Assembly: GCF_000768355.1 (NCBI RefSeq)
Contig: NZ_AVPU01000017.1
Coordinates: forward strand, 3,080 to 67,079
Direction of reading: 5' to 3'
DNA from: Lysobacter daejeonensis GH1-9
GTDB taxonomy: Bacteria > Pseudomonadota > Gammaproteobacteria > Xanthomonadales > Xanthomonadaceae
Length of the DNA stretch: 64,000 bases
Both the position numbers and the translations under genes were made by a program. Shown here piece after piece: positions 31,043-61,957 of the stretch. Numbering within the stretch: position 1 is the first letter of the stretch; each line of letters begins with the position of its first letter. Under the pieces are notes generated by a model. That model was given only the letters and a program-made list of their open reading frames with translations, was not told the origin of the DNA and did no database searches.

Positions 31043-31045
31043 GCC

Positions 31046-48116: not shown

Positions 48117-48160
48117 GGATGCCCTGGAAGCCCGGCCTTGGCCGGGCATCCTTGATTTGT
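48117..48160 (+). terminator. rho-independent terminator upstream of the nine-gene operon
   Basis: GGATGCCC/GCCCGGCC-ttg-GCCGGGC/ATCC nested hairpin followed by TTGATTTGT. Confidence 0.5.
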
Positions 48161-48181
48161 GGGCGACCCTCTTGCGATCTT

Positions 48182-48211
48182 TCATGTAAGGAGATAGGTT
48201 TGCTTACATGA
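48182..48211 (+). promoter_or_regulatory. 9-bp inverted repeat enclosing the SD and start codon of the first operon gene
   Basis: TCATGTAAG-gagataggtttg-CTTACATGA; the start ATG 48208-48210 lies inside the right arm and the GGAG SD lies in the loop. Confidence 0.45.
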
Positions 48212-48858
48212 AAGCTGCAAAGCCCTCCTCAGTCTACGTTCGCGAATTCCGCGAGCGGATGCGGCGTGCGGGCCTGATAAAAAAGGATGTGTGGATCCTG
48301 CCCGGCTACGCCGCGGACCTGGCCACCATTGAAAAGCGGTTTCGGCAGGTACCCGGCGAGGCGGGTACGGACCCGTTGGCTCAGGGTGGTGCCTGGCCGT
48401 CCGTGGACGGCTGGACCCTAGGAGCATTGCAATCCGCAATCGAGGCCAGTCCGCTGGTCCAGGTGGGGAGCGTGGATGTCGCGAGGATCGAAGGCGCCGA
48501 CCCTGCGTTGAGCCTGGTGATGCGCGATCACGGCGATCTGCCGGTCTTCCTGGTCGTGGGCGCCCTTCAGATCGTGGTGCAGGCGCTCCTGTGGCCGGTG
48601 GACCATGTGCGTGACCCGGCCGCCTTCAATGCGTACGTGCTGGGCACGCACAAATTCGTGCCCCTCAGCAACGTGGGGGTCGAGTCCGTGGCCGGCGTGC
48701 CCTGCTACATCCTGTTCGGCTCGCTGGACACGCAATCGAGCCTGACCAACATCCTGTTCGAGATCCAGACGCTGGCCGACAATGTCATTGCGTCTGTCGA
48801 TGCATACCGCAGCTTCCTCAAGGATGAGGTCCTCATGCAGGCAGGATTGAGCGCGTGA
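48208..48858 (+). CDS. hypothetical protein, first gene of operon (possibly YjfI/DUF2170-like)
   Basis: 216 aa with no strong motif. The family assignment rests only on the fact that it immediately precedes a PspA-like gene, as yjfI-yjfJ does in E. coli. Confidence 0.4.
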   Translation: MKAAKPSSVYVREFRERMRRAGLIKKDVWILPGYAADLATIEKRFRQVPGEAGTDPLAQGGAWPSVDGWTLGALQSAIEASPLVQVGSVDVARIEGADPALSLVMRDHGDLPVFLVVGALQIVVQALLWPVDHVRDPAAFNAYVLGTHKFVPLSNVGVESVAGVPCYILFGSLDTQSSLTNILFEIQTLADNVIASVDAYRSFLKDEVLMQAGLSA

Positions 48859-49598
48859 AGCCGGGTATCCCCTTCCTCGCCCGGGTCCGTTCCCAATTGT
48901 CCGAACTGGGAAGCACGGTCCGCGACGCAGTGCGCGAGGCCAGCAGCCAGCGCGTCCTGGACGAGCAGTTGCAACGGATGAACGAAGAGGTCCGCATTCT
49001 GCGGCGCGAGCTCGACACGCTTAACGCCCAGTGGATAACGACGCAGGAGCGACACGACGCGGTCACCGCGAAGCTCGTTGAGCGTGAGGCGCAGGCACTC
49101 GCGGCCGTGAAGGCCGGGCGGCATGATCTGGCGCGTGAGGTGGCCGCCGCGATCGTAGGCCTGGAGTTTGAACGGGACGCCGAGCGCGCGTTGCTGGCGC
49201 GCAACGCCAGTCACCGCACGGAGCTGCGGGCACGGCTGCAGCTAGGCGAGAACCTGCAGCGCAGGCTGGGGCACGAGCTGGACCTGTTGCGTACCGCCGC
49301 AGCGGTTGCCCGGGCCGAGGACGCCTTTGCTGAGCGTTCGGCGGGGGCCACGCTGGGCATTCCCACGGCGCTCGAGTCACTGGGCGTGCTCAGGGCGCGC
49401 GGTACCGTGCAGGCGCAACCCGCAAGCCTTCCAAACGAAGGCACCCCGCCAGAGGATCCGCTGGATGAGAAGCTCCGCGCCGCCGGCATCGGGGAACCGC
49501 GCTCTCCGGTGGACACGGTCCTCGATCGGATCGCCGCGCAGGCGGAACCACTCACCAAGCCCAAGCGCCGCATTTCCCGCCGCAAGGACACGCCATGA
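48855..49598 (+). CDS. PspA/IM30 family protein (YjfJ-like)
   Basis: Coiled-coil protein; N-terminus ...LARVRSQLSELGSTVRDAVREASSQRVLDEQLQRMNEEVRILRRELDTLNAQ resembles the PspA/IM30 helix alpha1-alpha2 region. GTGA start overlap with the upstream stop. Confidence 0.65.
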   Translation: MKPGIPFLARVRSQLSELGSTVRDAVREASSQRVLDEQLQRMNEEVRILRRELDTLNAQWITTQERHDAVTAKLVEREAQALAAVKAGRHDLAREVAAAIVGLEFERDAERALLARNASHRTELRARLQLGENLQRRLGHELDLLRTAAAVARAEDAFAERSAGATLGIPTALESLGVLRARGTVQAQPASLPNEGTPPEDPLDEKLRAAGIGEPRSPVDTVLDRIAAQAEPLTKPKRRISRRKDTP

Positions 49599-50230
49599 CC
49601 GAGTTCCTGACCACCGTGTTGACGCTGCCCACCCTTCCTTACAGCGTGCTGTTAGCGGTCTGTACCACCTATTGGCTGTTGGCCGCGACCGGTCTGCTGG
49701 AGATCGACGCGCTGGACGGCGTGCTGGGCACCGACGGGGATGCGAGCGATGCCAGCGCCGTCGCCGCGATGCTCGCCAAACTGGGGCTTTCAGGGGTGCC
49801 GGTCATGCTGGTGTTGACCGTACTGGCCTTCATCGGCTGGCTGGGCACGTACTTCGTGCAACTTCTGGTGTTGAACCATCTGCCCGATGCATTTCGCGTG
49901 TTGGTCGGGCTCGCCATCGGCGTACTGATGCTGGTCCCGGGCCTTGTGGCCACCTCGCTGCTACTACGGCCGGTCAGTCGTCTCCTGCTGAGGCTGCGTC
50001 CGCCACGGGAATCCTCGTTGCTGGGGCGCGTGGCGGTGGTCAGCACGCCCCACGTCGCCACCGACTACGGCATGGCGGCGGTCGACGACGGCGCAGCCGG
50101 GCTGGTCCTCCAAGTGCGCCATGATGACCCCGGAAAGTTCAGGCGCGGCGACCGGGTCGTCCTCATCGAGTACCTCGGTGAGCAACATGCCTACCGCATC
50201 ATCTCGGAACAGCAGTTCCAAAGCCTGTAA
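49595..50230 (+). CDS. YqiJ/NfeD-like membrane protein (DUF1449)
   Basis: Three or four N-terminal TM helices plus a C-terminal beta-rich OB-like domain (GRVAVVSTPHV...GDRVVLIEYLGEQHAYRI). Immediately upstream of a flotillin gene, as yqiJ-yqiK is. ATGA overlap. Confidence 0.65.
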   Translation: MTEFLTTVLTLPTLPYSVLLAVCTTYWLLAATGLLEIDALDGVLGTDGDASDASAVAAMLAKLGLSGVPVMLVLTVLAFIGWLGTYFVQLLVLNHLPDAFRVLVGLAIGVLMLVPGLVATSLLLRPVSRLLLRLRPPRESSLLGRVAVVSTPHVATDYGMAAVDDGAAGLVLQVRHDDPGKFRRGDRVVLIEYLGEQHAYRIISEQQFQSL

Positions 50231-50257
50231 GCGTTCGTATCCCAAGGAGAGGTTGAA

Positions 50258-52273
50258 ATGAGTGTGTCCATGGTTCTGCCGTTCGTGATCGGCGCAGGCG
50301 TGCTGCTGGTCGTGATGCTCGGTATCTTCGGGCTGTTCAAGGCCTTCTACGTGAAGGTGCCGCAGGGCACCGCCCTGATCGTCAATGACCTCAGCTCGAC
50401 GCCGAAGGTCCGCTTCACCGGCGGCTTGATCATCCCGGTGCTGTACAAGGCCGAGCTAATGCAGATCAGCCTGATCACCCTGCAGGTAGACCGTCGTGGT
50501 CGCGAGGGGCTGATCTGCCGGGACAACATGCGCGCCGATATCTCGGTCGCTTTCTATTTGCGCGTCAACGAAACCCAGCAGGACGTGCTACGGGTGGCCA
50601 AGGCGGTGGGTGCGGAGCGGGCCTCCGACAAGGCGGCCGTCGATGAGCTGTTCAACGCAAAGTTCTCCGAAGCGCTCAAGACGGTCGGCAAGAAGTTCGA
50701 CTTCACCGACCTGTTCGAGAAGCGCCAGGAGTTCCGCGACGAGATCGTCAAGATCATCGGCAACGACCTGAATGGGTACGTGCTGGAAGACGTGGCCATC
50801 GACTACCTCGAGCAGACCCGCAAGAGCGACCTTGATCCGAACAACATCATGGACGCCGAGGGCATCAAGAAGATCACCGAGATCACCGCCGCCCAGAACG
50901 TGGTGACCAACGAACTGGAGCAGAACGAGAAGCTGGCGATCACCAAGAAGAACACCGAAGCGCGCGAAGCGATGCTGGCGTTGGAACGTCAGCAGGCCGA
51001 GGCTGAAGCCCGTCAGAAGCGCGAGATCGAGAGTATTCGCGCTCGCGAAGAGGCGGAAACCCGTCGCGTGCAGGAAGAGCAGCGTCTGGTCGCCGAGCAG
51101 GCTCGCCTGGAGTCGGACGAGAAGATCCGTATTCGCGAGGAGAACGTGCAGCGCGAGGTCGAGGTCGCCGAGCAGAACCGTCAGCGTGCCGTCGCCATCG
51201 AGGAAGAGCGTGTTGTCCGGGCACGTGAACTGGAAAAGGTGACGACCGACCGCGAGGTTCAACTGCAGGCGGTGGAACGCGACAAGGTAGTCGAAGTAGG
51301 CAAGAAGGACGTTGCCAATATCACCCGCGAACGCGTGGCCATCGACAAGACGGTGGCGATGGAAGAAGAGCGCATCAAGGAAGTGCGGGTGGTCTCCGAG
51401 GCCGAGCGCGAGAAGCAGTCGCGCATCCTGGCTGCTGAAGCAGCCGCGCAGGAAGCGATGGTCCAGGCAGTCAAGGAAGCCGAGGCGGCGGAAACCGCGG
51501 CCAAGCACAAGGCGGTGGAGGTCACCACGCTGGCGCAGGCCAAGCTGGAAGCGGCTAGCCGTGAAGCCGAAGCAAAGCGCGTGCTGGCCGAAGGCGTGAA
51601 GGCCGAGCAGGCGGCGCCTGGCCTGGCCGACGTCCAGGTCCGCGAAGCTGAAGCGCTTGCCATCGAAAAGCAGGGCGTGGCCGAAGCCCGCGTGATCGAG
51701 GCCAAGGCGCAGGCGAGGTTGGTGGAGGGTACGAACGAGGCCCGCGTACTTGCCGAACGTATGGCGGCCGAGGCCGAAGGTACGGCAAAGCAAGGTCGGG
51801 CGAGCGCCGAATCGGTTGAAGCCGTGGGTTCGGCCGAGGCCAACGTTACGGTGAAAAAGCTCACCGCAGAGGCCGAGGGCCTGACCAAGAAGTTCGAGGC
51901 CATCGACTCGCTCTCGGAAAACGCGCGCACCCACGAAGAGTTCCGCATGTCGCTGGAGATGCATCTCGAACAGGCGCTCGCCTCGATTGCCGCCGGCAAG
52001 GACGTCGCCAAGGAAAACGCCGAAGTCATCGCATCGGCATTGCGCAACGCCAACATCGACCTGGTCGGCGGCGACGGCGGGCTGTTCGAGGCGTTCTCCA
52101 AGTCGTTGTCGTTGGGCAAGGCAGTCGAGGGCTTGGTCGGCAAGAGCCCGATCGTGCAGGATCTCCTGGGTCGCTACCTTGGCGTCGGCAAGGCTGACGC
52201 AGTATCGGCAAAACTGCCTGCGCTCAATGGCGGCGAACGCCCTGCCAACGCGGTATCCGAAGCGAATGCCTGA
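50258..52273 (+). CDS. flotillin-like SPFH/band-7 family protein (YqiK-like)
   Basis: N-terminal TM then an SPFH domain (FYVKVPQGTALIVNDL...), followed by a long E/A/R/K-rich coiled coil with EA repeats; 671 aa. Confidence 0.85.
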   Translation: MSVSMVLPFVIGAGVLLVVMLGIFGLFKAFYVKVPQGTALIVNDLSSTPKVRFTGGLIIPVLYKAELMQISLITLQVDRRGREGLICRDNMRADISVAFYLRVNETQQDVLRVAKAVGAERASDKAAVDELFNAKFSEALKTVGKKFDFTDLFEKRQEFRDEIVKIIGNDLNGYVLEDVAIDYLEQTRKSDLDPNNIMDAEGIKKITEITAAQNVVTNELEQNEKLAITKKNTEAREAMLALERQQAEAEARQKREIESIRAREEAETRRVQEEQRLVAEQARLESDEKIRIREENVQREVEVAEQNRQRAVAIEEERVVRARELEKVTTDREVQLQAVERDKVVEVGKKDVANITRERVAIDKTVAMEEERIKEVRVVSEAEREKQSRILAAEAAAQEAMVQAVKEAEAAETAAKHKAVEVTTLAQAKLEAASREAEAKRVLAEGVKAEQAAPGLADVQVREAEALAIEKQGVAEARVIEAKAQARLVEGTNEARVLAERMAAEAEGTAKQGRASAESVEAVGSAEANVTVKKLTAEAEGLTKKFEAIDSLSENARTHEEFRMSLEMHLEQALASIAAGKDVAKENAEVIASALRNANIDLVGGDGGLFEAFSKSLSLGKAVEGLVGKSPIVQDLLGRYLGVGKADAVSAKLPALNGGERPANAVSEANA

Positions 52274-52349
52274 GCTGTAGTTCCCGAGCGCATCAACCTA
52301 TGCCGGCGACGATGAGCGTCGCCGGCAACAACCCTGCAAGGACCCGCAC

Positions 52350-52607
52350 ATGAGCGCAAACCGCGACCACCTGGAAATGGCGTTCCACTCCATCAGCTGC
52401 TTTGGCAACGACGGTCGCCTGGACGCGACTGAACTGGATCGCCTCGTTGCCATCGCCGAACGCGACGGCATCATCGATCCCGACGAGATCCGCGTGCTGA
52501 ACAACATCATCTCGCGCGTCCAGCCCCACGAGATCGACGCGGCGATGAAAGCGCGGCTGGACGCACTGCGAAGGAAGATCGGTCCGGCCCCCGTTCCCGC
52601 CACCTGA
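52350..52607 (+). CDS. small TerB-like protein (85 aa)
   Basis: Two tandem hDGxhDxxEhxxL repeats (GNDGRLDATELDRL; ERDGIIDPDEIRVL), reminiscent of the TerB/DjlA-N fold. Confidence 0.4.
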   Translation: MSANRDHLEMAFHSISCFGNDGRLDATELDRLVAIAERDGIIDPDEIRVLNNIISRVQPHEIDAAMKARLDALRRKIGPAPVPAT

Positions 52608-52680
52608 CGGTTGCCCGTCGCGCCAGCCCGTCCTTCCGATAACCGCACCCATCGCCCGTTAGTCCGGGCAAGGTTCCGCC

Positions 52681-55600
52681 ATGTCGCCTATCGCGCCCGA
52701 CGCCCCACGTTCCGAAACCGTGTCCGAAGCCCAGCAGGTCGACCAAGCGGTCGCACAAGGGGGCGCCTACGAGGTGCTGAGCAAACGCCTGGGCGAGCAG
52801 GGAGCCCGTCTGCGCGCGGCGGCGGAGGCGCTCAACCGCGAAAGGCTGGACGAGTTCGGCAGCAGCCAGCTGGAGGTGATCGGACGCCTGCGCATTCGCA
52901 CCGAGAACAACTGCATTGGGCGCGACGTCGTGCAAGTCGGCGAGCTGTTGCTATTCGGCTACAACGTCTTCATCGGGCTCAAGACCACCACCCGGATTGA
53001 GGACGTTTTCGGTCTCTATCGACTGGCGTCAACCACGGACGGGTTCGATGTCGAGCCCGTCAATCATGCCGGAAGCTTCCTGGCTGACGCACAGTTCGTC
53101 CGTGACTTCACCGAGCTGTACGCCTACTACAAGGATGCGCGCCTGCTGCAGTTGGTGGTGCGGGATGGCAAGCTACTGGCGGCCTTCCAGATTGGCGAGC
53201 GCATAAGCGACGTGCGGGTGTTCCGCTGGGCGCTGACCGCACAGGGCGAAGCCACCTACATTGACGCCCGCGGTGAGCGGGACCTCACGATGCCGACGCC
53301 GTTCGACTTCGAGTGGACACGCGCCACACGGGAGTTGATGGTCAACGGCCGTCACCCGCACTTGAACGTGCTCGACACGTTGTTCGTGGAGACCACCGGG
53401 GGCGACCTGACCATCAAGGTCGAGAACAACACCGAAACCGGCCAAGGCATTCACGCCGAACCGGTGGACGACAAGACACAATCGCTGGACGACGCGGCCT
53501 TCGACTACGCGCGCGTCGGGTCGCTGATCCTGCTGAAGGTGCTGCCGTATCGCGAGACCGCCTGGCGTGGGTTCATCTACAACACACTCACCGGCAAGGT
53601 GCAGCGCAACGACGCAATCCTGCAGGCCTGTGTGCAGTTGCCGGAGGACCACGGAATCATCTTCCCCGGCGGTTACTACCTGCAGAACGGTGAGCACAAG
53701 GCGTTCGATGCTGGCATGGATGGTATGCAGTTCAAGCGCGCCGTGCGTTCGCCCAATGGCGAGGATGTGCTGTACGTCTTCTATGAGCGCGAGGCCGGCC
53801 GATCGGCGCTGTTCGTCTACAACATGATCCAGCGACACCTGCAGAACCCAGTGTTCGGCCATGGCTACGCGCGCCTGGCCGACGGCCGCATGGTGATCTT
53901 CCACGCCGAGGGTGACGGCGCGACCCGAATCCACCCGATGCAGGTGTGGCAGACGCCGTTCGTTTCCGACGAGTTCGCAGCAACCCGCCCGCCGGGCAAC
54001 AGCTACCTGGGGCGCCTGGGCAATGCCGAGCTGGTCCGTGGGCTGTCCAACCTGCTCAACCTAAGCCGCGAGATCGAAAGTCCCGAGGTATCGGTGCAGC
54101 GGTACCAGCTACTGACCCAGAACACGCGCCGGTTGTTCGACGCGCACCATTGGATCGACGACGCCCACTGCGGCGGCGCGGCGACTCTGCTGCGCGAGAT
54201 TGCCGCCACCGGCGAAGCCGTGCTGGACGAATTCGAGAAGGTCGAGGGCATCCGCCGCCAGTCCGAGCAGGCAATGGCCGAGGCGCGGCATGACCACACC
54301 GCGCTCCTAAGCCGACTGCTGCCGGAGAGCTGGAGCCAGGTACAGGAGTTCGTCGAAGCACTCAACGCGATCACCCGCCTACGCGGTCGCCTGCTGACCA
54401 TCCGCGACTACCGCTACGTCGACGTCATGGCGATCGACGCGATGGGAGCGGAGCTGCTGGGCCAGCACGAGCGCATCGGCGCGGCGACGGGCGAGTTCCT
54501 GGCTGGCGAGAAGGCGCTGGTCCCGCTGGCGGAGCGGCTAGCCACCTTCGATTCGCAGGCGCAGGAAGCCGAAACCGCCAAAGTGCTGGCCAAAGCGTTG
54601 GAGGCACTGCAGGGAATGGCCACCGACCTGGACATGTTGTCGGAACTGATGGCCACCTTGAAGGTGGACGACGCGGTACAGCGCACTCGGGTGGTGGAGG
54701 CGATCTCCGGACTTTACGGCCGTCTCAACCAAGCCCGTGCGCGCGCCGAGCTGCGCCGAAAAAGCCTCGGGTCAGCCGAAGCCGTCGCCCAATTTGGTGC
54801 CCAGTTCACCCTCTTCGGACAGTCCATCACCAGCGCGCTCGGCCTGGCGACGGACCCCGAGAGGGCCGACGAGCAACTGTCGCGCCTGATGGTCCAGTTG
54901 GAGGAACTGGAAAGTCAGTTTGGCGAACATGAGCAGTTCCTCGGCGACATCCTCACCAAGCGTGAGGAACTGCTCGACACGTTTGAATCGCACAAGCAGG
55001 CGCTTCTGGACGACCGCCAGCGCAAGGCGCAGTCGGTGCTGGACGCGGCCAACCGCATCCTGTCGGGCCTGAACAAGCGCGCCGAGAAGTTCTCGACGCC
55101 CGACGAACTCAACGCCTTCTTCGCCGGCGATGCGCTGATTCTCAAGCTGCGCGAGTTGGCGACCCGCCTTCGCGAACTCAAGGACTCAGTGAAAGCCGAC
55201 GATGTTGAGGCGCGCTTGAAGGGTGCGCGCGACCAAGCGATCCGCGTACTACGCGACCGCGCCGACCTGTTCGAGGGCGGGGGCAACGTCATCAAGCTGG
55301 GACGCCATCGCTTCAGTGTGAATACACAGCCGCTGGACTTGACCATCCTGCCGCGCGGAGATCACCTGGCGTTGCACCTGACCGGCACCGATTTCATGGC
55401 GCCGATCGACAACCCCGAGCTGGGCGCATTGCGCGAGTACTGGCAGGTGTCGCTCGAATCCGAGTCACCCACGTTGTACCGCGCCGAGTACCTGGTGGGC
55501 GAACTGTTTGCGGCAGCCAACGCCGGCACCGACGGGCTTGATCGTGACGCGTTGCAACGCCTTTCTGCCGACCCGGACGCGCTCGCCAAGGCTGTCCGCG

Positions 55601-57999
55601 ACTTCGCAGCGCCACGCTACCGCGAAGGCTACGAGCGCGGCATCCACGACCATGACGCAACGCTGATCCTGCGAGCTTTCCTCGCCCAGCACAGCGCGGC
55701 CGGCACCCTGATCCACCCGCCTGCGCCGCGTGCCTTGGCGGCATTGTTCATGGCCGTGCATCGGCAGGCGCCGGACGTTGCCGAGTGGGCAGGACGCCTG
55801 ACCAGCGCCAAGGCGATGCAGGCGCTGTTCGGGGCCAGCAGCTCCCTCGATGTGGCGCTGTCCGAGATGGCCGGGCGCCTGATCGAGTTCGTCGATGCCA
55901 GTGGCTTGGCGTTCGATGCGTCGGCAGCCCAGGCGGCCGCGTCCTACCTGGCCGACGAGCTCACCGCCCCGAACGACGGTTTCGCTCTCTCCCGCTACGC
56001 GCGCGAGTTGGCGGAGGGTCTGGCCCACCGCATGCGCGAGGTCGACCTCGAAACCCCGTTCCTGCGCACGCTGGTGCAGTTGGCAGCTCGCCCCGGGGCG
56101 CGCTGGCAACACGTGGTCCACTGGCTGGAAGCGCTTTGCCGCGACCCGGCGATGGCACCCCTGGCAGGTTACATCCCCGAGGCCGCGGCTTGGATCGTGA
56201 CCCGTGACACATTGGAGTTCCGTGACAGCGCCGTGCCGCTGATCACCACGATCAGCGGGCTGCTGGGTGAGCATCCCCGCATCCGCGATGGCCGCCTGAC
56301 CCTAGCCGCGGACGACCTGCTTGCCCGCCTGCATGCGCATCGCGAGCAGTTCTTGCCGGGCGTGCGCCATTACCACGCCGTGCGCCAGGACATCGCCACG
56401 CGTGAACGTGAGGTCTTGCGCCTGACGGAGTTCCAAGCCCGGCCGTTGTCGTCGTTCGTGCGCAACCGGCTGATCAGCGAGATCTACTTGCCGATCATCG
56501 GCGACAATCTCGCAAAGCAGATGGGCACGGTGGGTGAGAACAAGCGCAGCGACCTGATGGGTCTGCTGATGATGATTTCTCCACCGGGCTACGGTAAGAC
56601 CACGCTGATGGAGTACGTGGCCAACCGTCTGGGCTTGATCTTCATGAAGATCAATGGCCCGGCCCTCGGCCACGAGGTGCGTTCGCTCGACCCCGAGCAG
56701 GCTCCCGATGCGACCTCGAAACAGGAACTGGAAAAGCTCAACCTTGCGTTGGAAATGGGCAACAACGTGATGCTGTATGTTGACGACATCCAGCACACCC
56801 ACCCCGAGTTCCTGCAGAAGTTCATCTCGTTGTGCGACGGTACGCGACGTATCGAGGGCGTGTGGAAAGGACGCACCCGCACCTATGACATGCGCGGCAA
56901 GAAGTTCTGCGTGGTGATGGCCGGAAACCCGTACACCGAGTCCGGCGAGGTATTCAAGATTCCGGACATGCTCGCCAACCGTGCCGACATCTACAACCTT
57001 GGCGACGTGCTGGGCGGCATGGAGGAAGCCTTCATGCTGAGCTATATCGAGAACAGCCTGACTTCCAGCCCGGTGCTCGCGCCACTGGCCACCCGTGACC
57101 TCAAGGATCTGTACGTGTTCGTCGACAAGGCGATGGGGCGGGACGTTTCCACCAACGAGCTTGCGCACGCCTACAGCGCGGCGGAGGTCAACGAGATCGT
57201 GGCTACGCTGGAGCGGATCATCAAGGTCCGCGATGTGGTCTACCGGGTCAACCAGCAGTACATCACCAGTGCCGCCCAAGCGGACAAGTACCGCACCGAG
57301 CCGCCGTTCAAACTGCAGGGCAGCTACCGCAACATGAACAAGCTGGTGGAGAAGATCTCGGCGGTGATGAACGAGGCCGAGCTGCAACAGCTGGTGGCCG
57401 ATCATTACCTGGGTGAGGCACAGCTGTTGACCACGGGCGCCGAGGAGAACCTGCTCAAGCTCAAGGAGCTGCGGGGCGTGCTCAATGTCGACGAGCAGGC
57501 GCGGTGGGAGCAGATCAAGCGCGATTTCCTGCGCAACAAGGCCATGGGGGCCGATGACGCCGACGTGGGCGGGCGCTTGGTGGCGCAATTGGCGGACATC
57601 GCCGGGGGCCTCCAAGCCATCGGTGATGGAGCACGGGCCGAACCGACGACCGCCGCGCCGCCTGCGCCATGGGAGGACATCCTGCGCCTGCTGCAACGGG
57701 TGGTCGAGCAGCGCGCGGTCGTGGCCACGCCCGCCGAGGTAGCGCCCCCGGGAACGAACTCCATGCCCGCGCCCGAACTGGCCTTGCTGCTTGAAACCGT
57801 CCGCTCCAGTCAGCGCGCGCAGGCTGAGGTTGGTTCGGCGCTGAGGCAGCTTGCCGATGCGATCCGCGCTAGCGTGCCGGCCAACCCTGTCGAGGTCGAG
57901 CCCGGCACTGGCCGGTCTCGTGGCCCGCACCGACCCACCCCGGTGGAAGCGCCGCTGGACCAGGCGTTGGCCCAAATGGGAGGCGAGCCGACGTCATGA
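52681..57999 (+). CDS. giant (1772 aa) protein with a single MoxR/dynein-class AAA+ ATPase module
   Basis: Walker A SPPGYGKTTL (~residue 1300); Walker B MLYVDDIQH; sensor-1 VVMAGNPY. The ~1200 N-terminal residues are helical/coiled-coil with no recognisable domain, and the C-terminal ~250 aa are low-complexity. Confidence 0.75.
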   Translation: MSPIAPDAPRSETVSEAQQVDQAVAQGGAYEVLSKRLGEQGARLRAAAEALNRERLDEFGSSQLEVIGRLRIRTENNCIGRDVVQVGELLLFGYNVFIGLKTTTRIEDVFGLYRLASTTDGFDVEPVNHAGSFLADAQFVRDFTELYAYYKDARLLQLVVRDGKLLAAFQIGERISDVRVFRWALTAQGEATYIDARGERDLTMPTPFDFEWTRATRELMVNGRHPHLNVLDTLFVETTGGDLTIKVENNTETGQGIHAEPVDDKTQSLDDAAFDYARVGSLILLKVLPYRETAWRGFIYNTLTGKVQRNDAILQACVQLPEDHGIIFPGGYYLQNGEHKAFDAGMDGMQFKRAVRSPNGEDVLYVFYEREAGRSALFVYNMIQRHLQNPVFGHGYARLADGRMVIFHAEGDGATRIHPMQVWQTPFVSDEFAATRPPGNSYLGRLGNAELVRGLSNLLNLSREIESPEVSVQRYQLLTQNTRRLFDAHHWIDDAHCGGAATLLREIAATGEAVLDEFEKVEGIRRQSEQAMAEARHDHTALLSRLLPESWSQVQEFVEALNAITRLRGRLLTIRDYRYVDVMAIDAMGAELLGQHERIGAATGEFLAGEKALVPLAERLATFDSQAQEAETAKVLAKALEALQGMATDLDMLSELMATLKVDDAVQRTRVVEAISGLYGRLNQARARAELRRKSLGSAEAVAQFGAQFTLFGQSITSALGLATDPERADEQLSRLMVQLEELESQFGEHEQFLGDILTKREELLDTFESHKQALLDDRQRKAQSVLDAANRILSGLNKRAEKFSTPDELNAFFAGDALILKLRELATRLRELKDSVKADDVEARLKGARDQAIRVLRDRADLFEGGGNVIKLGRHRFSVNTQPLDLTILPRGDHLALHLTGTDFMAPIDNPELGALREYWQVSLESESPTLYRAEYLVGELFAAANAGTDGLDRDALQRLSADPDALAKAVRDFAAPRYREGYERGIHDHDATLILRAFLAQHSAAGTLIHPPAPRALAALFMAVHRQAPDVAEWAGRLTSAKAMQALFGASSSLDVALSEMAGRLIEFVDASGLAFDASAAQAAASYLADELTAPNDGFALSRYARELAEGLAHRMREVDLETPFLRTLVQLAARPGARWQHVVHWLEALCRDPAMAPLAGYIPEAAAWIVTRDTLEFRDSAVPLITTISGLLGEHPRIRDGRLTLAADDLLARLHAHREQFLPGVRHYHAVRQDIATREREVLRLTEFQARPLSSFVRNRLISEIYLPIIGDNLAKQMGTVGENKRSDLMGLLMMISPPGYGKTTLMEYVANRLGLIFMKINGPALGHEVRSLDPEQAPDATSKQELEKLNLALEMGNNVMLYVDDIQHTHPEFLQKFISLCDGTRRIEGVWKGRTRTYDMRGKKFCVVMAGNPYTESGEVFKIPDMLANRADIYNLGDVLGGMEEAFMLSYIENSLTSSPVLAPLATRDLKDLYVFVDKAMGRDVSTNELAHAYSAAEVNEIVATLERIIKVRDVVYRVNQQYITSAAQADKYRTEPPFKLQGSYRNMNKLVEKISAVMNEAELQQLVADHYLGEAQLLTTGAEENLLKLKELRGVLNVDEQARWEQIKRDFLRNKAMGADDADVGGRLVAQLADIAGGLQAIGDGARAEPTTAAPPAPWEDILRLLQRVVEQRAVVATPAEVAPPGTNSMPAPELALLLETVRSSQRAQAEVGSALRQLADAIRASVPANPVEVEPGTGRSRGPHRPTPVEAPLDQALAQMGGEPTS

Positions 58000-58748
58000 G
58001 CGGCGTGCCGCCCGCGGAGGACCACGAGGCAGGGGCCTCCGATGTCCTTGGCCGTGACGTGCTCGCGCAGGTGAGCATGGACCGCATCGCTGCGCAACTC
58101 GGCGACCTACCGACGGCGGCCCTGCTGCAATCGCTGGGCGGGATCCTCGATGCCCTCGACGGGGCGGATGCGACGCGCGCCGCGCGGCGGGTCGGGGTGA
58201 TCGGCCGTCTTCTGGGTCGCGACCTGGTGGCGCGGGCGCATCCAGATCCCACCGAGGCGCGCGTGCGCGTCCATTTGGCCCATGCCGCCACGCAAGCCAC
58301 ACAGCTTGAATGCCATTTGGTCGGGCTGCAGGCGACCGTCGCGCAGCTGGAATCGAGCACCCGGCGACTGCAGGCACTCGTTGATGGCCGGCAGGCAATG
58401 GCCGCCGCAGAAGCTTACTTGGGGGGCGAGTCTGGACGTCGCCGGCTGGCCTACCTCGCGGCGATTGTCGATTCGTGGCGCGTCTCCGCGGCGCAACTGC
58501 ATCTGGCCATTGGCAACGCGCGCCAGTTGCTGGAGCGGCACGGCCAAGTGCGTGATTTTCTGGTACCGCTATGGCGCCAGCAGGCCACCGCGGCCGAAGT
58601 CGGGCGTCGCCTGCGTGACCAGGACGCCAGTCGCGCCGCGGACCTGCGGCATAGCCTGCGGCGGCTGTTGGAGACGTTAGGCACCGCCACACCCGACTCA
58701 CCCACCGTCAACTCCGCACCACCGGCCGAAAGGGAGCCTTTGCCATGA
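57996..58748 (+). CDS. coiled-coil protein, possibly a divergent TelA-like paralog
   Basis: ATGA-coupled to the AAA+ gene. Shares a VIGrLLGRDLV-type segment with the downstream TelA-like protein; otherwise no motifs. Confidence 0.4.
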   Translation: MSGVPPAEDHEAGASDVLGRDVLAQVSMDRIAAQLGDLPTAALLQSLGGILDALDGADATRAARRVGVIGRLLGRDLVARAHPDPTEARVRVHLAHAATQATQLECHLVGLQATVAQLESSTRRLQALVDGRQAMAAAEAYLGGESGRRRLAYLAAIVDSWRVSAAQLHLAIGNARQLLERHGQVRDFLVPLWRQQATAAEVGRRLRDQDASRAADLRHSLRRLLETLGTATPDSPTVNSAPPAEREPLP

Positions 58749-59842
58749 CCGAGTCCACCACCGACGTCGCCAACCCGCTGTCCGTGCCCACGCTCGACGA
58801 GGCCACGCTGCTGCAGCTCGGCCTTGCCGCGACCGATCTCGACCGCGTGGGAGAGATCCGTGCCACGTTGGTCGATCTCTCGCCCGCGAACGTGCAGGGT
58901 TACGGCCGCGACGCAGCCACCAAGACCACGCAATTCTCCAGTGAGCTGCTGGACCAGGTCCGCAACCGCGATCTGGATGCTACCGGCGACAAGCTGGGCG
59001 AGGTGGTGCGCATTGCGCGCAACCTCAACCTGCAGAAGTTCGGTGGGCGCTCCAAGCTGCCCGTGATCGGTCCGTTGATCGACCGGGTGCGCGGCTCCAA
59101 GGGCGAACTGGTGCAGAAATTCAGCACGACCAACCAGCAGATCGAACACCTGATGCGCGACGTTTCGCGGCAGCAGGAAGACTTGGGCAGGCGTGTGCGC
59201 GATTTCGATCGAATGCACGGCATCGTGGTGGTCGAGCGCCATGAGCTGGGTCTGCATGTCGCGGCTGGCAAGCTGCGGTTGGCCGAGCTGGAGGTTGAAC
59301 GTTCGGCACTGGAAGGACGTGACGATCCCGAGGCCCGGGCACGCCGGCAGGAGATCGACGGCGCTGTGCGTCTGCTCGACAAGCGCGTGGGCGACCTGCT
59401 GCTACTGCAGCACGCGGCCGACCAGTCGCTGCCGATGATCCGCATGATCCAGGCCAACGCGATGCAGCTGATCGAGAAGTTTGCAACGGTCCGCGACATT
59501 ACGATCCCTGCGTGGAAACGCAGCTTCGCCATTCAACTCTCACTCAATGAGCAGAAGAGCGCCGTCGAGCTGGCCAACGCCATCGATGACGCGACCAATG
59601 AGTTGATGCGCCGCAATGCCGACATGTTGCACGAGAACTCGGTGGCCACGGCCAAGGCCAACCAGCGAGGCGTGGTTGACGTCGAGACGTTGCAGCACGT
59701 GCACGAGAAGCTGATCCAGACTGTCGAGGACGTGCGCCAGATCCATCGCGAGGGTATCGAGAAGCGCCGGCAGGCCGAGCAGGACCTGAGCCGGATGCGC
59801 GACGACGTGCAGAAGCGCCTGGCCGCGCCGACGCTGGGCTGA
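58745..59842 (+). CDS. toxic anion resistance protein TelA/KlaB family
   Basis: C-terminal half TIPAWKRSFAIQLSLNEQKSAVELANAIDDATNELMRRNADMLHENSVATAKANQRGVVDVETLQHVHEKLIQTVEDVRQIHREGIEKRRQAEQDL aligns closely, as I recall it, with the TelA consensus (TIPLWKNQ...TNELLRKNAEML...ENERGIVDIETL...IQ.EGR.KRR.AE). ATGA overlap. Confidence 0.8.
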   Translation: MTESTTDVANPLSVPTLDEATLLQLGLAATDLDRVGEIRATLVDLSPANVQGYGRDAATKTTQFSSELLDQVRNRDLDATGDKLGEVVRIARNLNLQKFGGRSKLPVIGPLIDRVRGSKGELVQKFSTTNQQIEHLMRDVSRQQEDLGRRVRDFDRMHGIVVVERHELGLHVAAGKLRLAELEVERSALEGRDDPEARARRQEIDGAVRLLDKRVGDLLLLQHAADQSLPMIRMIQANAMQLIEKFATVRDITIPAWKRSFAIQLSLNEQKSAVELANAIDDATNELMRRNADMLHENSVATAKANQRGVVDVETLQHVHEKLIQTVEDVRQIHREGIEKRRQAEQDLSRMRDDVQKRLAAPTLG

Positions 59843-60549
59843 TGGACTTCTCCGCCCTCGACCAGGCGCTGCGCGAGTTCGCCCTCGACGGTGCACTCGA
59901 CAACGACGAGCGCTTCGAGCTGCGCAACCTTGGCGGACAGTCCACCGCCGAACAGGTCCGGTTCATGCGTAACCGGGCCTTCGCCATCACGCGGGAAGCG
60001 ATCACAGCCGAGCCGGCTGCGGCACTGGGCATGCTGCGCTGGTTGGAGCAGGTCGTGAAGACCCTGGACGCAACCTCCGCCGGTGCGGTGGCGGCATCGA
60101 CCGCGTGCTTTTCCCCGGGCGACGCCTGCCTGCGGAAACTGCGCGAACTGTGCCGGCAGGCCAAAGCCAGCATCGACGTGTGCGTGTTCACCATCGCCGA
60201 CGATCGGCTGACCGAAGCGCTGCTGGGCGCCCACGCGCGCGGAGTGCGCGTGCGCATCATCAGCGACAACGACAAGCGCTTCGACGACGGCTCGGACATC
60301 GCCCGACTTGCTGCCGCCGGCATCCCGCTGCGCCTGGATCGGTCGATTTGCCACATGCACCACAAGTTCGCGGTGTTTGAAGGCGGCACCATCGCCAACG
60401 GCAGTTTCAACTGGACCCGCACGGCTAGCACCAGCAACTTCGAGAACCTTGTTGTCAGCGCCGACCCCTACCTGGTCGGCGTTTTCACCGCGCAGTTCGA
60501 GCGGTTGTGGAATGAGTTCGAGGCCGTGCCAAGCGCAGCTGTCACGTAG
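59842..60549 (+). CDS. phospholipase D-like (single HKD) nuclease-family protein with an N-terminal TerB-like motif
   Basis: Single HKD motif HMHHKFAVFEGGTIANGSFNWTRTAS, as in the Nuc/BfiI-type PLD nucleases. N-terminus ALDGALDNDERFELRNL. TGATG-coupled to telA. Confidence 0.75.
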   Translation: MDFSALDQALREFALDGALDNDERFELRNLGGQSTAEQVRFMRNRAFAITREAITAEPAAALGMLRWLEQVVKTLDATSAGAVAASTACFSPGDACLRKLRELCRQAKASIDVCVFTIADDRLTEALLGAHARGVRVRIISDNDKRFDDGSDIARLAAAGIPLRLDRSICHMHHKFAVFEGGTIANGSFNWTRTASTSNFENLVVSADPYLVGVFTAQFERLWNEFEAVPSAAVT

Positions 60550-60843
60550 ATTCGTGATCAGACAACCATAGGCCGAACCGGGAGCCAAGCATAGTTGCTA
60601 CGCCGAACGCTCAGAAATGGCAGGACATTGATTGGGTGAACAGCCATAACGAGCGCAAAGTGTTTCAAATCAAGGGCATAAACCCCGAATCTCCCGTCGC
60701 CAAACAATCAAAGTGGGTGTCACTGAGTCCACGAGGCGAAGTACCAGCACGAGCACCACATGCGACTTGTCTAGGCGTAGAGTCATTCGTGCACCGTTCG
60801 CACGGTCCTGAATGCAGCCTAGAGATAAACAGGAGACGCCGAC

Positions 60844-61086
60844 GTGAGGCATGCGAAGCCCCTGGGTTCAGATCTAGCCGACGCAAAGAGGATGCTCCGG
60901 GACGCCATCGCCGCGCAGGGAGGACCTTCAGTCGATTACGACGTCGACGCGTGGGTTGAAGAGTGGATCTTGCGGCCGCAGCCGGCATTGGGAGGCGTCT
61001 GTCCCTCAACTCTTCTGCAGACAGAGGAAGGGTTGGACCGCGTTCGTCGCCTACTCGGTGCAATTATTAGCGGCGCGTTTCAATAG
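60844..61086 (+). CDS. DUF2384 (Xre/MbcA/ParS-type) antitoxin-like protein, orphan
   Basis: AWVEEWILRPQPALGGVCPSTLLQTEEGLDRVRRLLGAIISG matches the DUF2384 toxin-binding domain (W...PnpaLGG.rPldLL.T..G...V..LL.ri..G). AGGAG RBS before GTG 60844, with an in-frame stop immediately upstream. No RES toxin gene downstream. Confidence 0.6.
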   Translation: MRHAKPLGSDLADAKRMLRDAIAAQGGPSVDYDVDAWVEEWILRPQPALGGVCPSTLLQTEEGLDRVRRLLGAIISGAFQ

Positions 61087-61293
61087 TATTTCGTTCTGCA
61101 TGAAGCCTAGGGCAGGTCCTAGAATGATCGCGCTGAACGGTGCATGGGAAAGGGCCATTTAGTGTGCGGCCAAAGTGGACGGCGGGCCCTGCCTGGCCTG
61201 CTCACGAACTTAAACACCTTGGCTGGTACTCATAACCGTACCGTCGGGAAGTGGGGATTGGTAATCTGATCCCGTAAAAGCTTGGGAGGCGAA

Positions 61294-61950: not shown

Positions 61951-61957
61951 TCAATAT

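What the first reader, a model, noticed from the sequence alone, without database searches (positions are those of the whole stretch)
52681..57999. 1772-aa protein with one AAA+ module embedded in ~1500 residues of unannotatable sequence
The only recognisable domain is a MoxR/AAA_5-like ATPase (Walker A PPGYGKTT, Walker B LYVDDIQH, sensor-1 MAGNPY) at roughly residues 1290-1420. The preceding ~1250 residues are helix/coiled-coil rich with recurring Leu/Arg/Glu heptads. The C-terminal ~250 residues are Ala/Pro-rich low complexity. The protein is ATGA-coupled to the TelA-like genes, which suggests a stoichiometric complex. A motor of this size next to flotillin could be a membrane-tethered mechanochemical sensor or effector. 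It is not a RecN/SMC-type repair ATPase because there are no ABC signature motifs.
Basis: partly seen in the sequence, partly recalled or inferred. Interest (0 to 1): 0.8.

Follow-up and report, generated by a model that had tools for sequence, protein, structure and literature searches.

The report
Flotillin-linked giant AAA+ ATPase (BacE)
This 1772-residue gene is the Lysobacter copy of BacE, a large, widespread ATPase of unknown mechanism that almost always sits next to a flotillin gene in a membrane-stress operon; the family and operon are already described, so the find is real but not new.

Summary

It is the ortholog of P. aeruginosa BacE (PA3728/PA14_16190) in the bacABCDEF "biofilm-associated cluster". 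Ravi et al. 2024 already described the operon type: CesT-like protein, PspA, 3TM protein, flotillin, "novel AAA+ ATPase with beta-propeller", and PLD.

In 72 related loci with enough flanking DNA, the 3TM-flotillin-ATPase core occurs in 71. PspA/BacA occurs in about two thirds, the TelA pair in about a quarter, and PLD in about a third.

Most likely it is a cytoplasmic ATP-driven remodeller working on flotillin and/or PspA assemblies. That role is inferred, not shown. Verdict: new member of a known, uncharacterised family.

The parts
48208..48858 (+). BacA-like CesT/Tir-type chaperone (DUF2170), first gene of the operon
   Evidence: Pfam DUF2170 E=4e-41. NCBIfam BacA model scores 225 bits, below its 300-bit cutoff. 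Present upstream in 51 of 83 loci.
48855..49598 (+). PspA/IM30 (ESCRT-III superfamily) protein, BacB-like
   Evidence: Pfam PspA_IM30 E=2.7e-16. GTGA overlap with the previous gene. Found in 51 of 83 loci.
49595..50230 (+). 211-aa membrane protein, YqiJ/YuaF (NfeD-like) 3TM partner of flotillin, BacC-like
   Evidence: No Pfam hit. Found in 76 of 83 loci directly upstream of the flotillin gene. The YqiJ/YuaF assignment comes from Ravi et al. 2024, PMC11237479.
50258..52273 (+). 671-aa TM + SPFH + coiled-coil flotillin, BacD-like
   Evidence: Only a weak Pfam Flot hit (E=0.016). It is 40-43% identical to the proteins next to the ATPase in Planctomycetota and Verrucomicrobiota. Homologues are annotated 'SPFH domain-containing' or 'flotillin family protein'. 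Found in 79 of 83 loci.
52350..52607 (+).
   Evidence: Weak Pfam EF-hand_5 hit, E=0.002. Conserved in 15-18 related loci at varying positions in the operon, tblastn E down to 4e-31.
52681..57999 (+). 1772-aa BacE-family AAA+ ATPase (the finding)
   Evidence: ORF confirmed. 100% identical to the L. daejeonensis GH1-9 'DNA repair protein'. 66% identical to the P. paraeruginosa ortholog in the same operon order.
52858..53955 (+). Residues about 60-425: beta-propeller of about seven four-stranded blades (core of Pfam DUF3686, residues 44-490)
   Evidence: AF2 model with pLDDT mostly 85-94, all-beta by DSSP. Foldseek PDB hits are to propellers only: Elp1, clathrin terminal domain, prolyl oligopeptidase, paraoxonase; E 1e-6 to 1e-4, about 10% identity. 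Pfam E=4e-199.
53998..55266 (+). Residues about 440-862: bundle of very long helices (up to 58 residues), includes Pfam DUF7902 (611-695)
   Evidence: AF2 DSSP. Hydrophobic power at a 3.5-residue period is 0.53 against 0.20+-0.04 in shuffles. Pfam DUF7902 E=7e-24.
55288..55407 (+). Residues 870-909: small beta domain (five short strands)
   Evidence: Present in both AF2 tiles; pLDDT above 90 in tile 2. G874, F878 and H899 are invariant in 45-110 sequences of 27-84% identity.
55480..56418 (+). Residues 934-1246: helical region. It carries the invariant motif R979-Y-x-E-G-Y-x-x-G-x-H989-D990-x-D992 (nt 55615-55656), followed by a poorly conserved stretch (1020-1190)
   Evidence: AF2. Conservation map. 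Invariant columns. No Pfam hit even at E<=10.
56548..57015 (+). Residues 1290-1445: single AAA+ alpha/beta domain. Walker A is 1301-1308 (nt 56581-56604). Walker B is hhhhDD, 1365-1372 (nt 56773-56796). A pre-sensor-1 beta-hairpin spans 1390-1403. Sensor-1 N1416 lies in 1413-1418 (nt 56917-56934). R1434 is the putative arginine finger.
57016..57615 (+). Residues 1446-1645: lid and conserved C-terminal helical domain
   Evidence: AF2 pLDDT 80-95. Strongly conserved blocks at 1517-1550 and 1576-1600.
57616..57996 (+). Residues 1646-1772: unconserved Ala/Pro-rich tail
   Evidence: pLDDT 40-70. Column conservation below 0.25. A+P composition.
57996..58748 (+). 250-aa helical protein, a distant TelA-like paralogue, ATGA-coupled to the ATPase gene
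   Evidence: No Pfam hit. BLASTP to TelA 6e-5. hhalign probability 37%. Its jackhmmer profile recruits TelA ORFs, and it accompanies TelA in 20 of 21 loci.
58745..59842 (+). TelA (toxic anion resistance family) protein
   Evidence: Pfam TelA E=1.3e-75. Present in about 21 of 83 loci, mainly Xanthomonadales.
59842..60549 (+). Single-HKD phospholipase-D superfamily hydrolase (Nuc/NucT/DrmC-like), BacF-like
   Evidence: Pfam PLDc_2 E=4e-27. All NCBIfam NucT and DrmC hits fall below their cutoffs. PADLOC DrmC E=8e-8. Present in 23-24 loci.

Best explanation
The gene encodes the Lysobacter ortholog of BacE (P. aeruginosa PA3728/PA14_16190). BacE is the large ATPase of the bac / 'CesT-PspA-flotillin' envelope-stress operon.

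The protein is soluble. From N to C terminus it has:
- a propeller of about seven blades (DUF3686);
- about 420 residues of long amphipathic helices;
- a small beta domain and a helical domain carrying an invariant RYxEGYxxGxHDxD motif;
- one MoxR/dynein-class AAA+ module, with Walker A GKT, Walker B DD, a pre-sensor-1 hairpin, a sensor-1 Asn and a candidate Arg finger;
- a conserved helical C-terminal domain;
- a variable tail.

Its constant genomic partners are a flotillin and that flotillin's NfeD-like 3TM protein. PspA+BacA, a TelA pair, a PLD hydrolase and a small EF-hand-like protein are optional add-ons.

Most likely mechanism (inferred): the AAA+ modules form a ring in the cytoplasm. 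The propeller and long helices dock the ring onto the flotillin/NfeD assembly at the inner membrane. ATP turnover then remodels membrane-bound polymers during envelope stress, by assembly, disassembly or client extraction. The likely polymers are the flotillin cage and, where present, PspA (ESCRT-III-like) or TelA assemblies. This would parallel FtsH inside HflK/C cages and Vps4 on ESCRT-III.

Shown: the ORF, domain architecture, conservation and synteny, and (from the literature, in Pseudomonas) co-transcription and co-regulation. Inferred: oligomeric state, physical contacts, the substrate, and whether ATP is hydrolysed fast or used as a switch (Walker B is DD, not DE).
For: Identity:
- 100% identical to the L. 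daejeonensis protein, with more than 5500 homologues.
- Pfam DUF3686 E=4e-199 and DUF7902 E=7e-24.
- The full-length architecture is kept down to 27% identity in Bacteroidota, Verrucomicrobiota and Planctomycetota.

Architecture:
- AF2 tiles have pLDDT 80.5 and 84.7.
- Propeller hits in Foldseek.

Partners:
- The N-F-ATPase order holds in 71 of 72 loci with adequate flanks.
- It also holds in Planctomycetota and Verrucomicrobiota and in Streptomyces.
- Genes are translationally coupled by overlapping start and stop codons.

Literature:
- Ravi et al. 2024 describe exactly this operon and ATPase.
- Wallart et al. 2024 show by RT-PCR that bacA-F are co-transcribed, and that BacB-F, including PA14_16190 at 8.9-fold, rise in a bacA mutant.
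- PA3728-PA3732 are induced together on phage infection and in another proteome.
- A 2025 review states that a Vps4-like ATPase for PspA appears absent in bacteria.
- HflK/C-FtsH and SPFH-NfeD complexes are cited precedents (reference lists seen).
Against: - No experiment or complex prediction here shows contact between this protein and flotillin, PspA or TelA.
- MoxR-class ATPases normally work with a VWA/MIDAS partner, and none is present.
- The invariant Walker B is DD, which may mean slow hydrolysis and a switch rather than a motor.
- The loop after beta2, where translocases carry pore loop 1, has no aromatic residue. Threading is therefore not obviously supported (sequence).
- One Bacteroidota genome has the gene without a flotillin neighbour.
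- A P. aeruginosa flotillin (PaFlo3) mutant shows only about a 20% biofilm defect, so the module's physiological weight is unclear.
- The invariant HDxD-type motif could mean an enzymatic activity that this model ignores.
Confidence: 0.55

Rival explanations
1. It is what the database name says: a DNA repair ATPase. It would act on DNA, perhaps as a RuvB-like motor together with the downstream PLD-family (Nuc-like) nuclease.
For: - NCBI and Pfam name it 'DNA repair ATPase' / 'ATPase involved in DNA repair'.
- The best PDB sequence matches are to the RuvB Walker A region, E about 5e-4. RuvB is also the top Foldseek hit by E-value.
- The PLD gene resembles the nucleases NucT and DrmC.
- PA3728 is recurrently mutated in CF isolates.
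Against: - The RuvB matches cover only about 45 residues around the P-loop.
- No DNA-binding domain was detected.
- All constant neighbours are membrane proteins (flotillin, 3TM). No rec, ruv or SOS genes are nearby.
- PLD is present in only about a third of loci.
- No paper found in the searchable library supports a repair role.
Confidence: 0.06
2. The operon is an anti-phage, abortive-infection type defence system. A membrane-associated sensing platform (flotillin/PspA/TelA) would be coupled through the AAA+ ATPase to a PLD nuclease effector.
For: - PA3728-PA3732 are up-regulated in all phage-infected P. aeruginosa samples.
- The PLD matches DrmC of DISARM.
- The operon region has lower GC (0.63-0.67 against about 0.70) and is followed by an IS21 element.
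- Accessory gene content is patchy.
- Longimicrobium proteins are about 75% identical, which suggests horizontal transfer.
Against: - No PADLOC model hits the ATPase, flotillin, 3TM, BacA or TelA proteins.
- The gene is absent from 50,697 phage records and present in only 13 of 72,556 plasmid records, mostly megaplasmids or chromids.
- The universal core (3TM-flotillin-ATPase) has no recognisable effector.
- PLD is missing in two thirds of loci.
- Induction by phage is also what a general 'phage shock' membrane-stress response would show.
Confidence: 0.1
3. One reading: a membrane-tethered mechanochemical sensor or effector that forms a fixed stoichiometric complex with the two TelA-like proteins.
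For: - The ATGA overlap with the 250-aa gene and tight coupling through to TelA.
- The TelA-like and TelA genes travel as a pair directly downstream of the ATPase in 20-21 loci.
Against: - The TelA pair is absent from about three quarters of loci, including the experimentally studied Pseudomonas operon. It therefore cannot be the obligatory partner.
- The ATPase has no transmembrane segment in the AF2 models.
- In Stenotrophomonas-type loci, TelA replaces BacA/PspA rather than adding to them. This suggests interchangeable clients.
Confidence: 0.12
4. It is mainly a structural coat- or scaffold-like protein (beta-propeller followed by long helical arms, as in clathrin, Sec31 or IFT-type proteins). 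The ATPase would act only as an assembly switch.
For: - Foldseek hits to the clathrin heavy-chain terminal domain plus linker, to IFT-A and to nucleoporins.
- The Walker B is DD, as in switch-type AAA+ proteins such as DnaA and IstB (my own knowledge).
Against: - These hits have TM-scores of 0.14 or less and about 10% identity, and align essentially the propeller only.
- The most conserved part of the protein by far is the AAA+ region, 1251-1600.
- The helices are long hairpins or bundles, not an alpha-solenoid.
Confidence: 0.05

Closest known systems
BacE (PA3728 / PA14_16190) of the Pseudomonas aeruginosa bacABCDEF operon (Mace 2008; Wallart 2024)
   Same: - Same family. The P. paraeruginosa ortholog is 66% identical over residues 9-1668.
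- Same gene order: BacA-PspA-3TM-flotillin-ATPase-PLD.
- Same Pfam content.
   Different: - The Lysobacter operon additionally carries an 85-aa EF-hand-like gene upstream of the ATPase gene, and a TelA-like/TelA pair between the ATPase and PLD genes. That full set was seen only in two other Lysobacter MAGs.
- No clear sigma-54 promoter was found here.
- BacE itself has no known biochemical function.
[quoted passage not shown] 2024, mSystems, PMC11237479)
   Same: This is that protein family and that operon type, including the YqiJ/YuaF 3TM protein and the optional HKD phospholipase D.
   Different: - Domain order in the AF2 models is propeller first and then the long helices, preceded by a single N-terminal helix.
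- The TelA pair and the small EF-hand-like gene are not mentioned in the passages read.
- Here the flotillin/3TM link (71 of 72 loci) is quantified as stronger than the PspA link (about 47 of 72).
MoxR-class AAA+ ATPases (CbbQ, NorQ, RavA) and the AAA modules of dynein and midasin
   Same: - A pre-sensor-1 beta-hairpin is predicted.
- Pfam AAA_5 scores just above its threshold, 23.0 against 22 bits.
   Different: - No VWA/MIDAS partner in the operon.
- Walker B is DD, not DE.
- There is a 1290-residue N-terminal extension and a 200-residue conserved C-terminal domain.
- There is one module per chain, unlike the six in dynein and midasin.
Vps4 / CdvC, the AAA+ ATPase that disassembles ESCRT-III polymers
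   Same: An AAA+ ATPase encoded in an operon with an ESCRT-III superfamily protein (PspA). This is a possible functional analogy.
   Different: - No MIT domain.
- PspA is absent from about a third of loci, whereas flotillin is nearly always present.
- It is not a member of the Vps4 family.
FtsH within HflK/C (SPFH) cages
   Same: A precedent for an AAA+ machine that works physically with an SPFH-family assembly at the bacterial inner membrane.
   Different: - This protein has no protease domain and no transmembrane helices.
- It belongs to a different AAA+ clade.
- Any physical association with flotillin is not shown.
RuvB
   Same: Best sequence-level PDB match around the P-loop (E about 5e-4) and the top Foldseek E-value.
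   Different: - The match is limited to the AAA+ core.
- No RuvA- or RuvC-like context, and no winged-helix DNA-binding domain was detected.

Membership tests
BacE / DUF3686 'DNA repair ATPase' family | N-terminal Pfam PF12458 (DUF3686) domain | tested here: met
   E=4e-199, residues 44-490 matching profile positions 2-448 of 448.
BacE / DUF3686 'DNA repair ATPase' family | Central PF25472 (DUF7902) domain and a single C-terminal AAA+ module, in a chain of about 1600-1900 aa | tested here: met
   DUF7902 E=7e-24. The same three-domain Pfam string occurs in about 240 listed homologues, down to 27% identity. The chain is collinear over 99-100% of its length.
BacE / DUF3686 'DNA repair ATPase' family | Encoded directly downstream of a flotillin gene and its 3TM (YqiJ/NfeD-like) partner | tested here: met
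   In the window the order is 49595-50230, 50258-52273, 52681-57999. The same order holds in 71 of 72 loci.
bac / CesT-PspA-band-7 envelope-stress operon (Ravi 2024; Wallart 2024) | DUF2170 (CesT/Tir-like) plus PspA dyad at the head of the operon | tested here: met
   Pfam DUF2170 E=4e-41 and PspA_IM30 E=2.7e-16.
bac / CesT-PspA-band-7 envelope-stress operon (Ravi 2024; Wallart 2024) | Co-transcription and sigma-54 dependence, as reported for P. aeruginosa | tested here: inconclusive
   Overlapping stop and start codons argue for one transcript. No TGGCAC-N5-TTGCW match with two or fewer mismatches lies upstream of 48208. GG-N10-GC motifs are not enriched across 51 loci relative to shuffles. 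No expression data exist for Lysobacter.
MoxR / AAA_5 class of AAA+ ATPases | AAA+ fold closest to MoxR, dynein or midasin modules, with a pre-sensor-1 beta-hairpin | tested here: met
   [not shown]
MoxR / AAA_5 class of AAA+ ATPases | Canonical Walker B hhhhDE with a catalytic glutamate | tested here: not met
   The motif is LYVDDIQH. D1368 and D1369 are invariant in 110 sequences.
MoxR / AAA_5 class of AAA+ ATPases | Partner protein with a VWA/MIDAS domain in the same operon (typical, not strictly defining) | tested here: not met
   No VWA hit in any of the eight operon proteins.
Vps4/CdvC ESCRT-III disassemblase | N-terminal MIT domain and a classical-clade AAA module | tested here: not met
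   [not shown]
SMC/RecN/ABC-type repair ATPases | Split ABC head with a signature motif, flanking an antiparallel coiled coil | tested here: not met
   No SMC or ABC family hit in Pfam or NCBIfam. The P-loop domain is a contiguous AAA+ fold. The weak PADLOC LmuB hit (E=0.0022) falls in the helical region only.
Known anti-phage defence systems (PADLOC 2.0) | Match to a defence-system protein model | tested here: not met
   Only the PLD gene matches, to DrmC at E=8e-8. The ATPase has nothing better than E=0.002.

The most novel reading that the evidence does not exclude
BacE-type ATPases are the missing ATP-driven remodeller of bacterial membrane-scaffold polymers. The propeller and long-helix arm would recognise flotillin cages. 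The MoxR-class ring would then assemble, open or recycle those cages together with co-encoded PspA (ESCRT-III) or TelA polymers. That would make BacE a functional analogue of Vps4 that arose from a different AAA+ clade. The PLD and the invariant HDxD-type motif might add a lipid- or nucleotide-directed chemical step.
Probability: 0.3. Interest if true: 0.8.

Novelty: new member of a known kind. Interest (0 to 1): 0.35.

Why it matters
Bacterial flotillins and PspA/ESCRT-III proteins are intensively studied. How their assemblies are built and taken apart is still open. A 2025 review notes that no Vps4-like ATPase is known for bacterial PspA.

This family is the most consistent ATPase neighbour of one flotillin class, across at least five phyla. 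In P. aeruginosa its operon affects biofilm formation and virulence, is induced by phage infection, and is recurrently mutated in cystic-fibrosis isolates. No biochemical or structural study of the protein was found in the searchable library.

The value of this analysis is not discovery of the family. It adds three things:
- a residue-level domain map;
- evidence that the database name 'DNA repair ATPase' has no support;
- evidence that flotillin/NfeD, rather than PspA or TelA, is the constant partner. This tells experimenters which complex to reconstitute first.

Tried and rejected
1. Solved relatives by sequence. Searching the PDB with the single sequence and with the family profile found only matches of about 45 residues around the P-loop, to RuvB and p97.
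2. PADLOC defence models. Nothing matched the ATPase.
3. Sigma-54 promoter, as reported for P. aeruginosa bacA. There is no convincing site upstream of 48208 (the best candidate is GGGCGACCCTCTTGCG at -47, with 4 mismatches). There is no enrichment over shuffles across 51 loci. My upstream windows depend on guessed start codons, so this result is inconclusive rather than negative.
4. Literature. A search for 'DUF3686' gave no paper. A search for TelA+flotillin+PspA+AAA+ together gave none.
5. Relaxed Pfam scans of residues 860-1260 and 1451-1772 found nothing. The invariant HDxD-type motif therefore remains unassigned.
6. Second, degenerate AAA module. The predicted secondary structure shows no other beta-alpha-beta P-loop domain, and self-BLAST shows no internal repeat.
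7. Frameshift or fusion artefact. Rejected, because the ORF is collinear with its homologues.
A 45-sequence maximally diverse subset was used instead.
I could not check whether the invariant residues (H899, E928, R934, H989, D990, D992, R1017) cluster in space.
10. Mobile-element carriage. There are no phage hits and only 13 plasmid hits, which argues against a typical mobile defence island.
Full report
**1. The observation**

An uninterrupted ORF of 1772 codons lies at 52681..57999 on the + strand. GC is 0.83 at third codon positions and 0.43 at second positions, which is typical of a real gene in a genome of about 70% GC. The product is 100% identical to the NCBI protein 'DNA repair protein [Lysobacter daejeonensis GH1-9]'. 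It aligns over 99-100% of its length with more than 100 proteins of 1750-1820 aa from Xanthomonadales and Longimicrobium. A frameshift or fusion artefact is therefore excluded.

The ATGA overlap with the next gene (57996-57999) is real. Similar overlaps (GTGA, ATGA, TGATG) link most genes from 48208 to 60549.

**2.

The N-terminal 1250 residues are not unannotatable and are not uniformly coiled coil.
- Pfam DUF3686 ('ATPase involved in DNA repair') matches residues 44-490 at E=4e-199. DUF7902 matches 611-695 at E=7e-24.
- I built two AlphaFold2 models on a deliberately diverse 45-sequence alignment (26-77% identity to the query). Tile 1 covers residues 1-1050 (mean pLDDT 80.5). Tile 2 covers 851-1772 (mean pLDDT 84.7, pTM 0.72).

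The models give this layout:
- disordered 1-26;
- one helix, 29-59;
- an all-beta domain, 65-424, with about seven groups of four strands;
- very long helices from 442 to 862 (for example 500-545, 665-722 and 751-801);
- a small five-strand beta domain, 870-909;
- a helical region, 934-1246;
- the AAA+ alpha/beta domain, about 1296-1440;
- a conserved helical lid and C-terminal domain, to about 1645;
- a low-confidence, unconserved tail, 1646-1772.

Foldseek against the PDB matched tile 1 only through its beta domain. The hits were generic beta-propellers: Elp1, clathrin terminal domain, prolyl oligopeptidase and paraoxonase, at E 1e-6 to 1e-4 and about 10% identity.

Hydrophobic periodicity at 3.5 residues is well above shuffles in 440-862 (0.53 against 0.20+-0.04). 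It is moderate in 934-1250 (0.35) and below shuffles in 60-425 (0.13). Self-BLAST finds no internal repeats. The Ala/Pro-rich tail is about 125 residues, not 250.

**3. The ATPase module**

There is one AAA+ module and no second alpha/beta P-loop domain.
- ClpA/ClpB score about 12-13, McrB about 11, and Vps4 about 10-11.
- Foldseek agrees: NorQ TM-score 0.65 on the target, CbbQ 0.58. RuvB has the best E-value, 1.8e-5.
- A beta-hairpin is predicted between Walker B and sensor-1 (1390-1403), as in the pre-sensor-1-insert AAA+ clades.

Two departures from canonical MoxR systems stand out:
- Walker B is DD, not DE. D1368 and D1369 are invariant in 110 sequences.
- No VWA/MIDAS partner is encoded nearby.

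Conservation across 110 homologues of 27-84% identity is highest in 1251-1600. Next come the propeller block 226-275 and an invariant motif, R979-Y-x-E-G-Y984-x-x-G987-x-H989-D990-x-D992. H899, E928, R934 and R1017 are also invariant. No Pfam family covers that region even at E<=10, and its role is unexplained.

**4. Surroundings**

The gene sits in a nine-gene + strand cluster:
- DUF2170/BacA-like (48208-48858);
- PspA/IM30 (48855-49598);
- a 211-aa membrane protein (49595-50230);
- a 671-aa flotillin (50258-52273);
- an 85-aa ORF with two DGxxDxxE loops (52350-52607);
- the ATPase (52681-57999);
- a 250-aa helical protein (57996-58748);
- TelA (58745-59842, Pfam E=1e-75);
- a single-HKD PLD-superfamily hydrolase (59842-60549).

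An IS21 element follows: IstB at 61958-62713 and an IstA fragment, both on the - strand.

The 250-aa protein is only distantly TelA-like. BLASTP gives 6e-5 over 21 residues. Profile-profile probability is 37%. Its iterated profile does pull in TelA ORFs, and it accompanies TelA in 20 of 21 loci.

**5. Related loci**

A scan of one genome per species found at least 563 loci that encode a relative; 80 were fetched. Three remote ones were added: Bacteroidota, Planctomycetota and Verrucomicrobiota. Two plasmid records were also examined.

Iterative profile searches on all ORFs of these loci covered 72 loci with at least 5 kb upstream and 3 kb downstream. They gave these counts:
- The order 3TM protein, flotillin, ATPase occurs in 71 of 72. 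The only exception is Aureibacter.
- BacA+PspA precede this core in about 47.
- The TelA pair follows it in about 19, mostly Xanthomonadales. In Stenotrophomonas it occurs without BacA/PspA.
- PLD follows in about 23.
- The window's full complement was seen only in two Lysobacter MAGs.

The flotillins next to the ATPase in Planctomycetota and Verrucomicrobiota are 40-43% identical to the window's. A Streptomyces plasmid has the order hypothetical protein, 'flotillin family protein', 'DNA repair ATPase'. The constant partner is therefore flotillin with its 3TM protein, not TelA and not even PspA.

At 50% clustering, the family has 456 representatives at E<=1e-30 and 975 at E<=1e-10 in 1.84 billion proteins. 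The full-length architecture is kept down to 27% identity. It is absent from 50,697 phage records and present in only 13 of 72,556 plasmid records, mostly megaplasmids or chromids.

**6. What is already known**

Ravi et al. 2024 (mSystems, PMC11237479) describe this operon. [quoted passage not shown] In some Proteobacteria there is a phospholipase D (HKD) hydrolase. They note that abbreviated flotillin/3TM(/ATPase) operons are more widespread.

In P. aeruginosa the cluster is the 'biofilm-associated cluster' (Mace 2008). Wallart et al. 2024 (PMC10948618) showed by RT-PCR that bacA to PA14_16200 form one transcript. They named PA14_16190 bacE and PA14_16200 bacF. They found BacB-F proteins 6- to 13-fold up in a bacA mutant, with BacE at 8.9-fold.

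The P. paraeruginosa locus has the same order, and its ATPase is 66% identical to the window's. The following observations also bear on PA3728:
- PA3728-PA3732 are induced together by phage infection (PMC12041424).
- They also rise together, alongside rtc proteins, in another proteome (PMC13637947).
- PA3728 is recurrently mutated in CF isolates (PMC8190622).

I found no biochemical or structural study of BacE.

**7. Most likely mechanism**

Shown:
- The protein is soluble in the models, with no transmembrane helix.
- It combines a peptide- or protein-binding type of domain (the propeller) and a long helical arm with a single MoxR-class AAA+ module.
- It is translationally coupled to, and co-inherited with, a flotillin/NfeD pair. 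PspA, TelA, PLD and an EF-hand-like protein are optional modules.

Inferred:
- The AAA+ modules form a ring.
- The N-terminal half docks it on the flotillin assembly at the inner membrane.
- ATP turnover remodels flotillin cages and, where present, PspA (ESCRT-III-like) or TelA assemblies during envelope stress.

Precedents for the logic are FtsH in HflK/C cages and Vps4 on ESCRT-III. A 2025 review states that a Vps4-like ATPase appears absent in bacteria, which is why this candidate is of interest.

Caveats:
- The DD Walker B may mean a slow, switch-like ATPase.
- The highly conserved loop after beta2 (N1325-G-P-x-x-G-H1331...S-x-D-P) lacks the aromatic residue of translocase pore loops.
- No interaction has been tested.

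I put 0.55 on this overall reading. The identity as a BacE ortholog is close to certain. The remodelling role is about even odds.

**8. Rivals**

- The database label 'DNA repair ATPase' rests on the unsupported description of DUF3686 and a P-loop-level resemblance to RuvB. No DNA-binding domain or repair context was found (confidence 0.06).
- A phage-defence system is conceivable, given phage induction, the DrmC-like PLD, the lower-GC region and the flanking IS21. Against it are the lack of any PADLOC match, the absence from phages, the near absence from plasmids, and a universal core without an effector (0.10).
- A coat-like scaffold reading rests on very weak structural matches (0.05).

**9. 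Verdict**

The ORF and its AAA+ module are real, and the flotillin link is strong. However, the protein belongs to a large, named and previously described family that remains mechanistically uncharacterised. This is a new member of a known kind, in an unusually complete operon variant. Interest is 0.35. It would be much higher (about 0.8) if the family proved to be the ATP-driven remodeller of bacterial flotillin or PspA scaffolds, to which I give about 0.3.

Noticed in passing
window 52350-52607 (+): An 85-aa ORF lies between the flotillin and ATPase genes. It has two DGxxDxxE loops (weak EF-hand_5 hit at E=0.002, faint DUF533/TerB-like hit). It is conserved in 15-18 related loci but sits at different places in the operon: just upstream of the ATPase gene, upstream of bacA, or downstream. 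It could be a Ca2+-binding accessory subunit.
   Followed up: partly
window 55615-55656 (residues 979-992 of the ATPase), plus H899, E928, R934, R1017: The motif R-Y-x-E-G-Y-x-x-G-x-H-D-x-D is invariant in 110 homologues of 27-84% identity, in a region with no Pfam family. It looks like a metal-binding or catalytic site (HD-like).
   Followed up: partly
window 48000-62000 and 61958-63268 (-): The operon region has lower GC (0.63-0.67, falling to 0.59 at 60-62 kb) than the rest of the window (about 0.69-0.73). An IS21 element follows it (IstB E=3e-70, IstA C-terminal fragment). Longimicrobium (Gemmatimonadota) homologues are 74-78% identical to the Lysobacter protein, which suggests inter-phylum transfer of the cluster.
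   Followed up: partly
L083 (Verrucomicrobiota) 1151-3750 and 14444-21151: In this locus the 3TM-flotillin-ATPase core sits between two neighbours. On one side is a divergently transcribed PspA plus 559-aa AAA gene pair. On the other is an RtcR-Ro60-RtcB-RtcA RNA-repair cluster. In P. aeruginosa, a proteome study reports PA3728-PA3732 among the proteins up-regulated in the same mutant that shows induction of the rtc genes (PMC13637947). A shared sigma-54/RtcR-type control is possible but untested.
   Followed up: no
L084 (Pseudomonas fluorescens SBW25 megaplasmid pQBR103) 1-12178: A single + strand array joins the other PspA context (PspA, rhomboid, DUF2491, DUF350, DUF1190, glutathionylspermidine synthase-like) directly to the 3TM-SPFH-ATPase core. 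The two operon types described by Ravi et al. can therefore be fused.
   Followed up: no
window 38717-38732 (+): A perfect sigma-54 promoter consensus, TGGCACGCTACTTGCT, is the only zero-mismatch site in the window. It lies about 60 nt upstream of a 469-aa + strand ORF that starts at 38793. It is unrelated to the finding.
   Followed up: no
window 12001-14000; 13678-18411 (+) and 29885-34630 (-): There is a sharp GC dip (0.556) at 12-14 kb. Two other very long ORFs (1577 aa and 1581 aa) lie elsewhere in the window. None of these was examined.
   Followed up: no
L005-L009, L011, L017, L022-L024, L035, L043 (Stenotrophomonas, Luteimonas, Xanthomonas): In these genomes the TelA-like/TelA pair is present downstream of the ATPase gene, while BacA and PspA are absent upstream. 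It is as if the TelA pair substitutes for the PspA module.
   Followed up: partly
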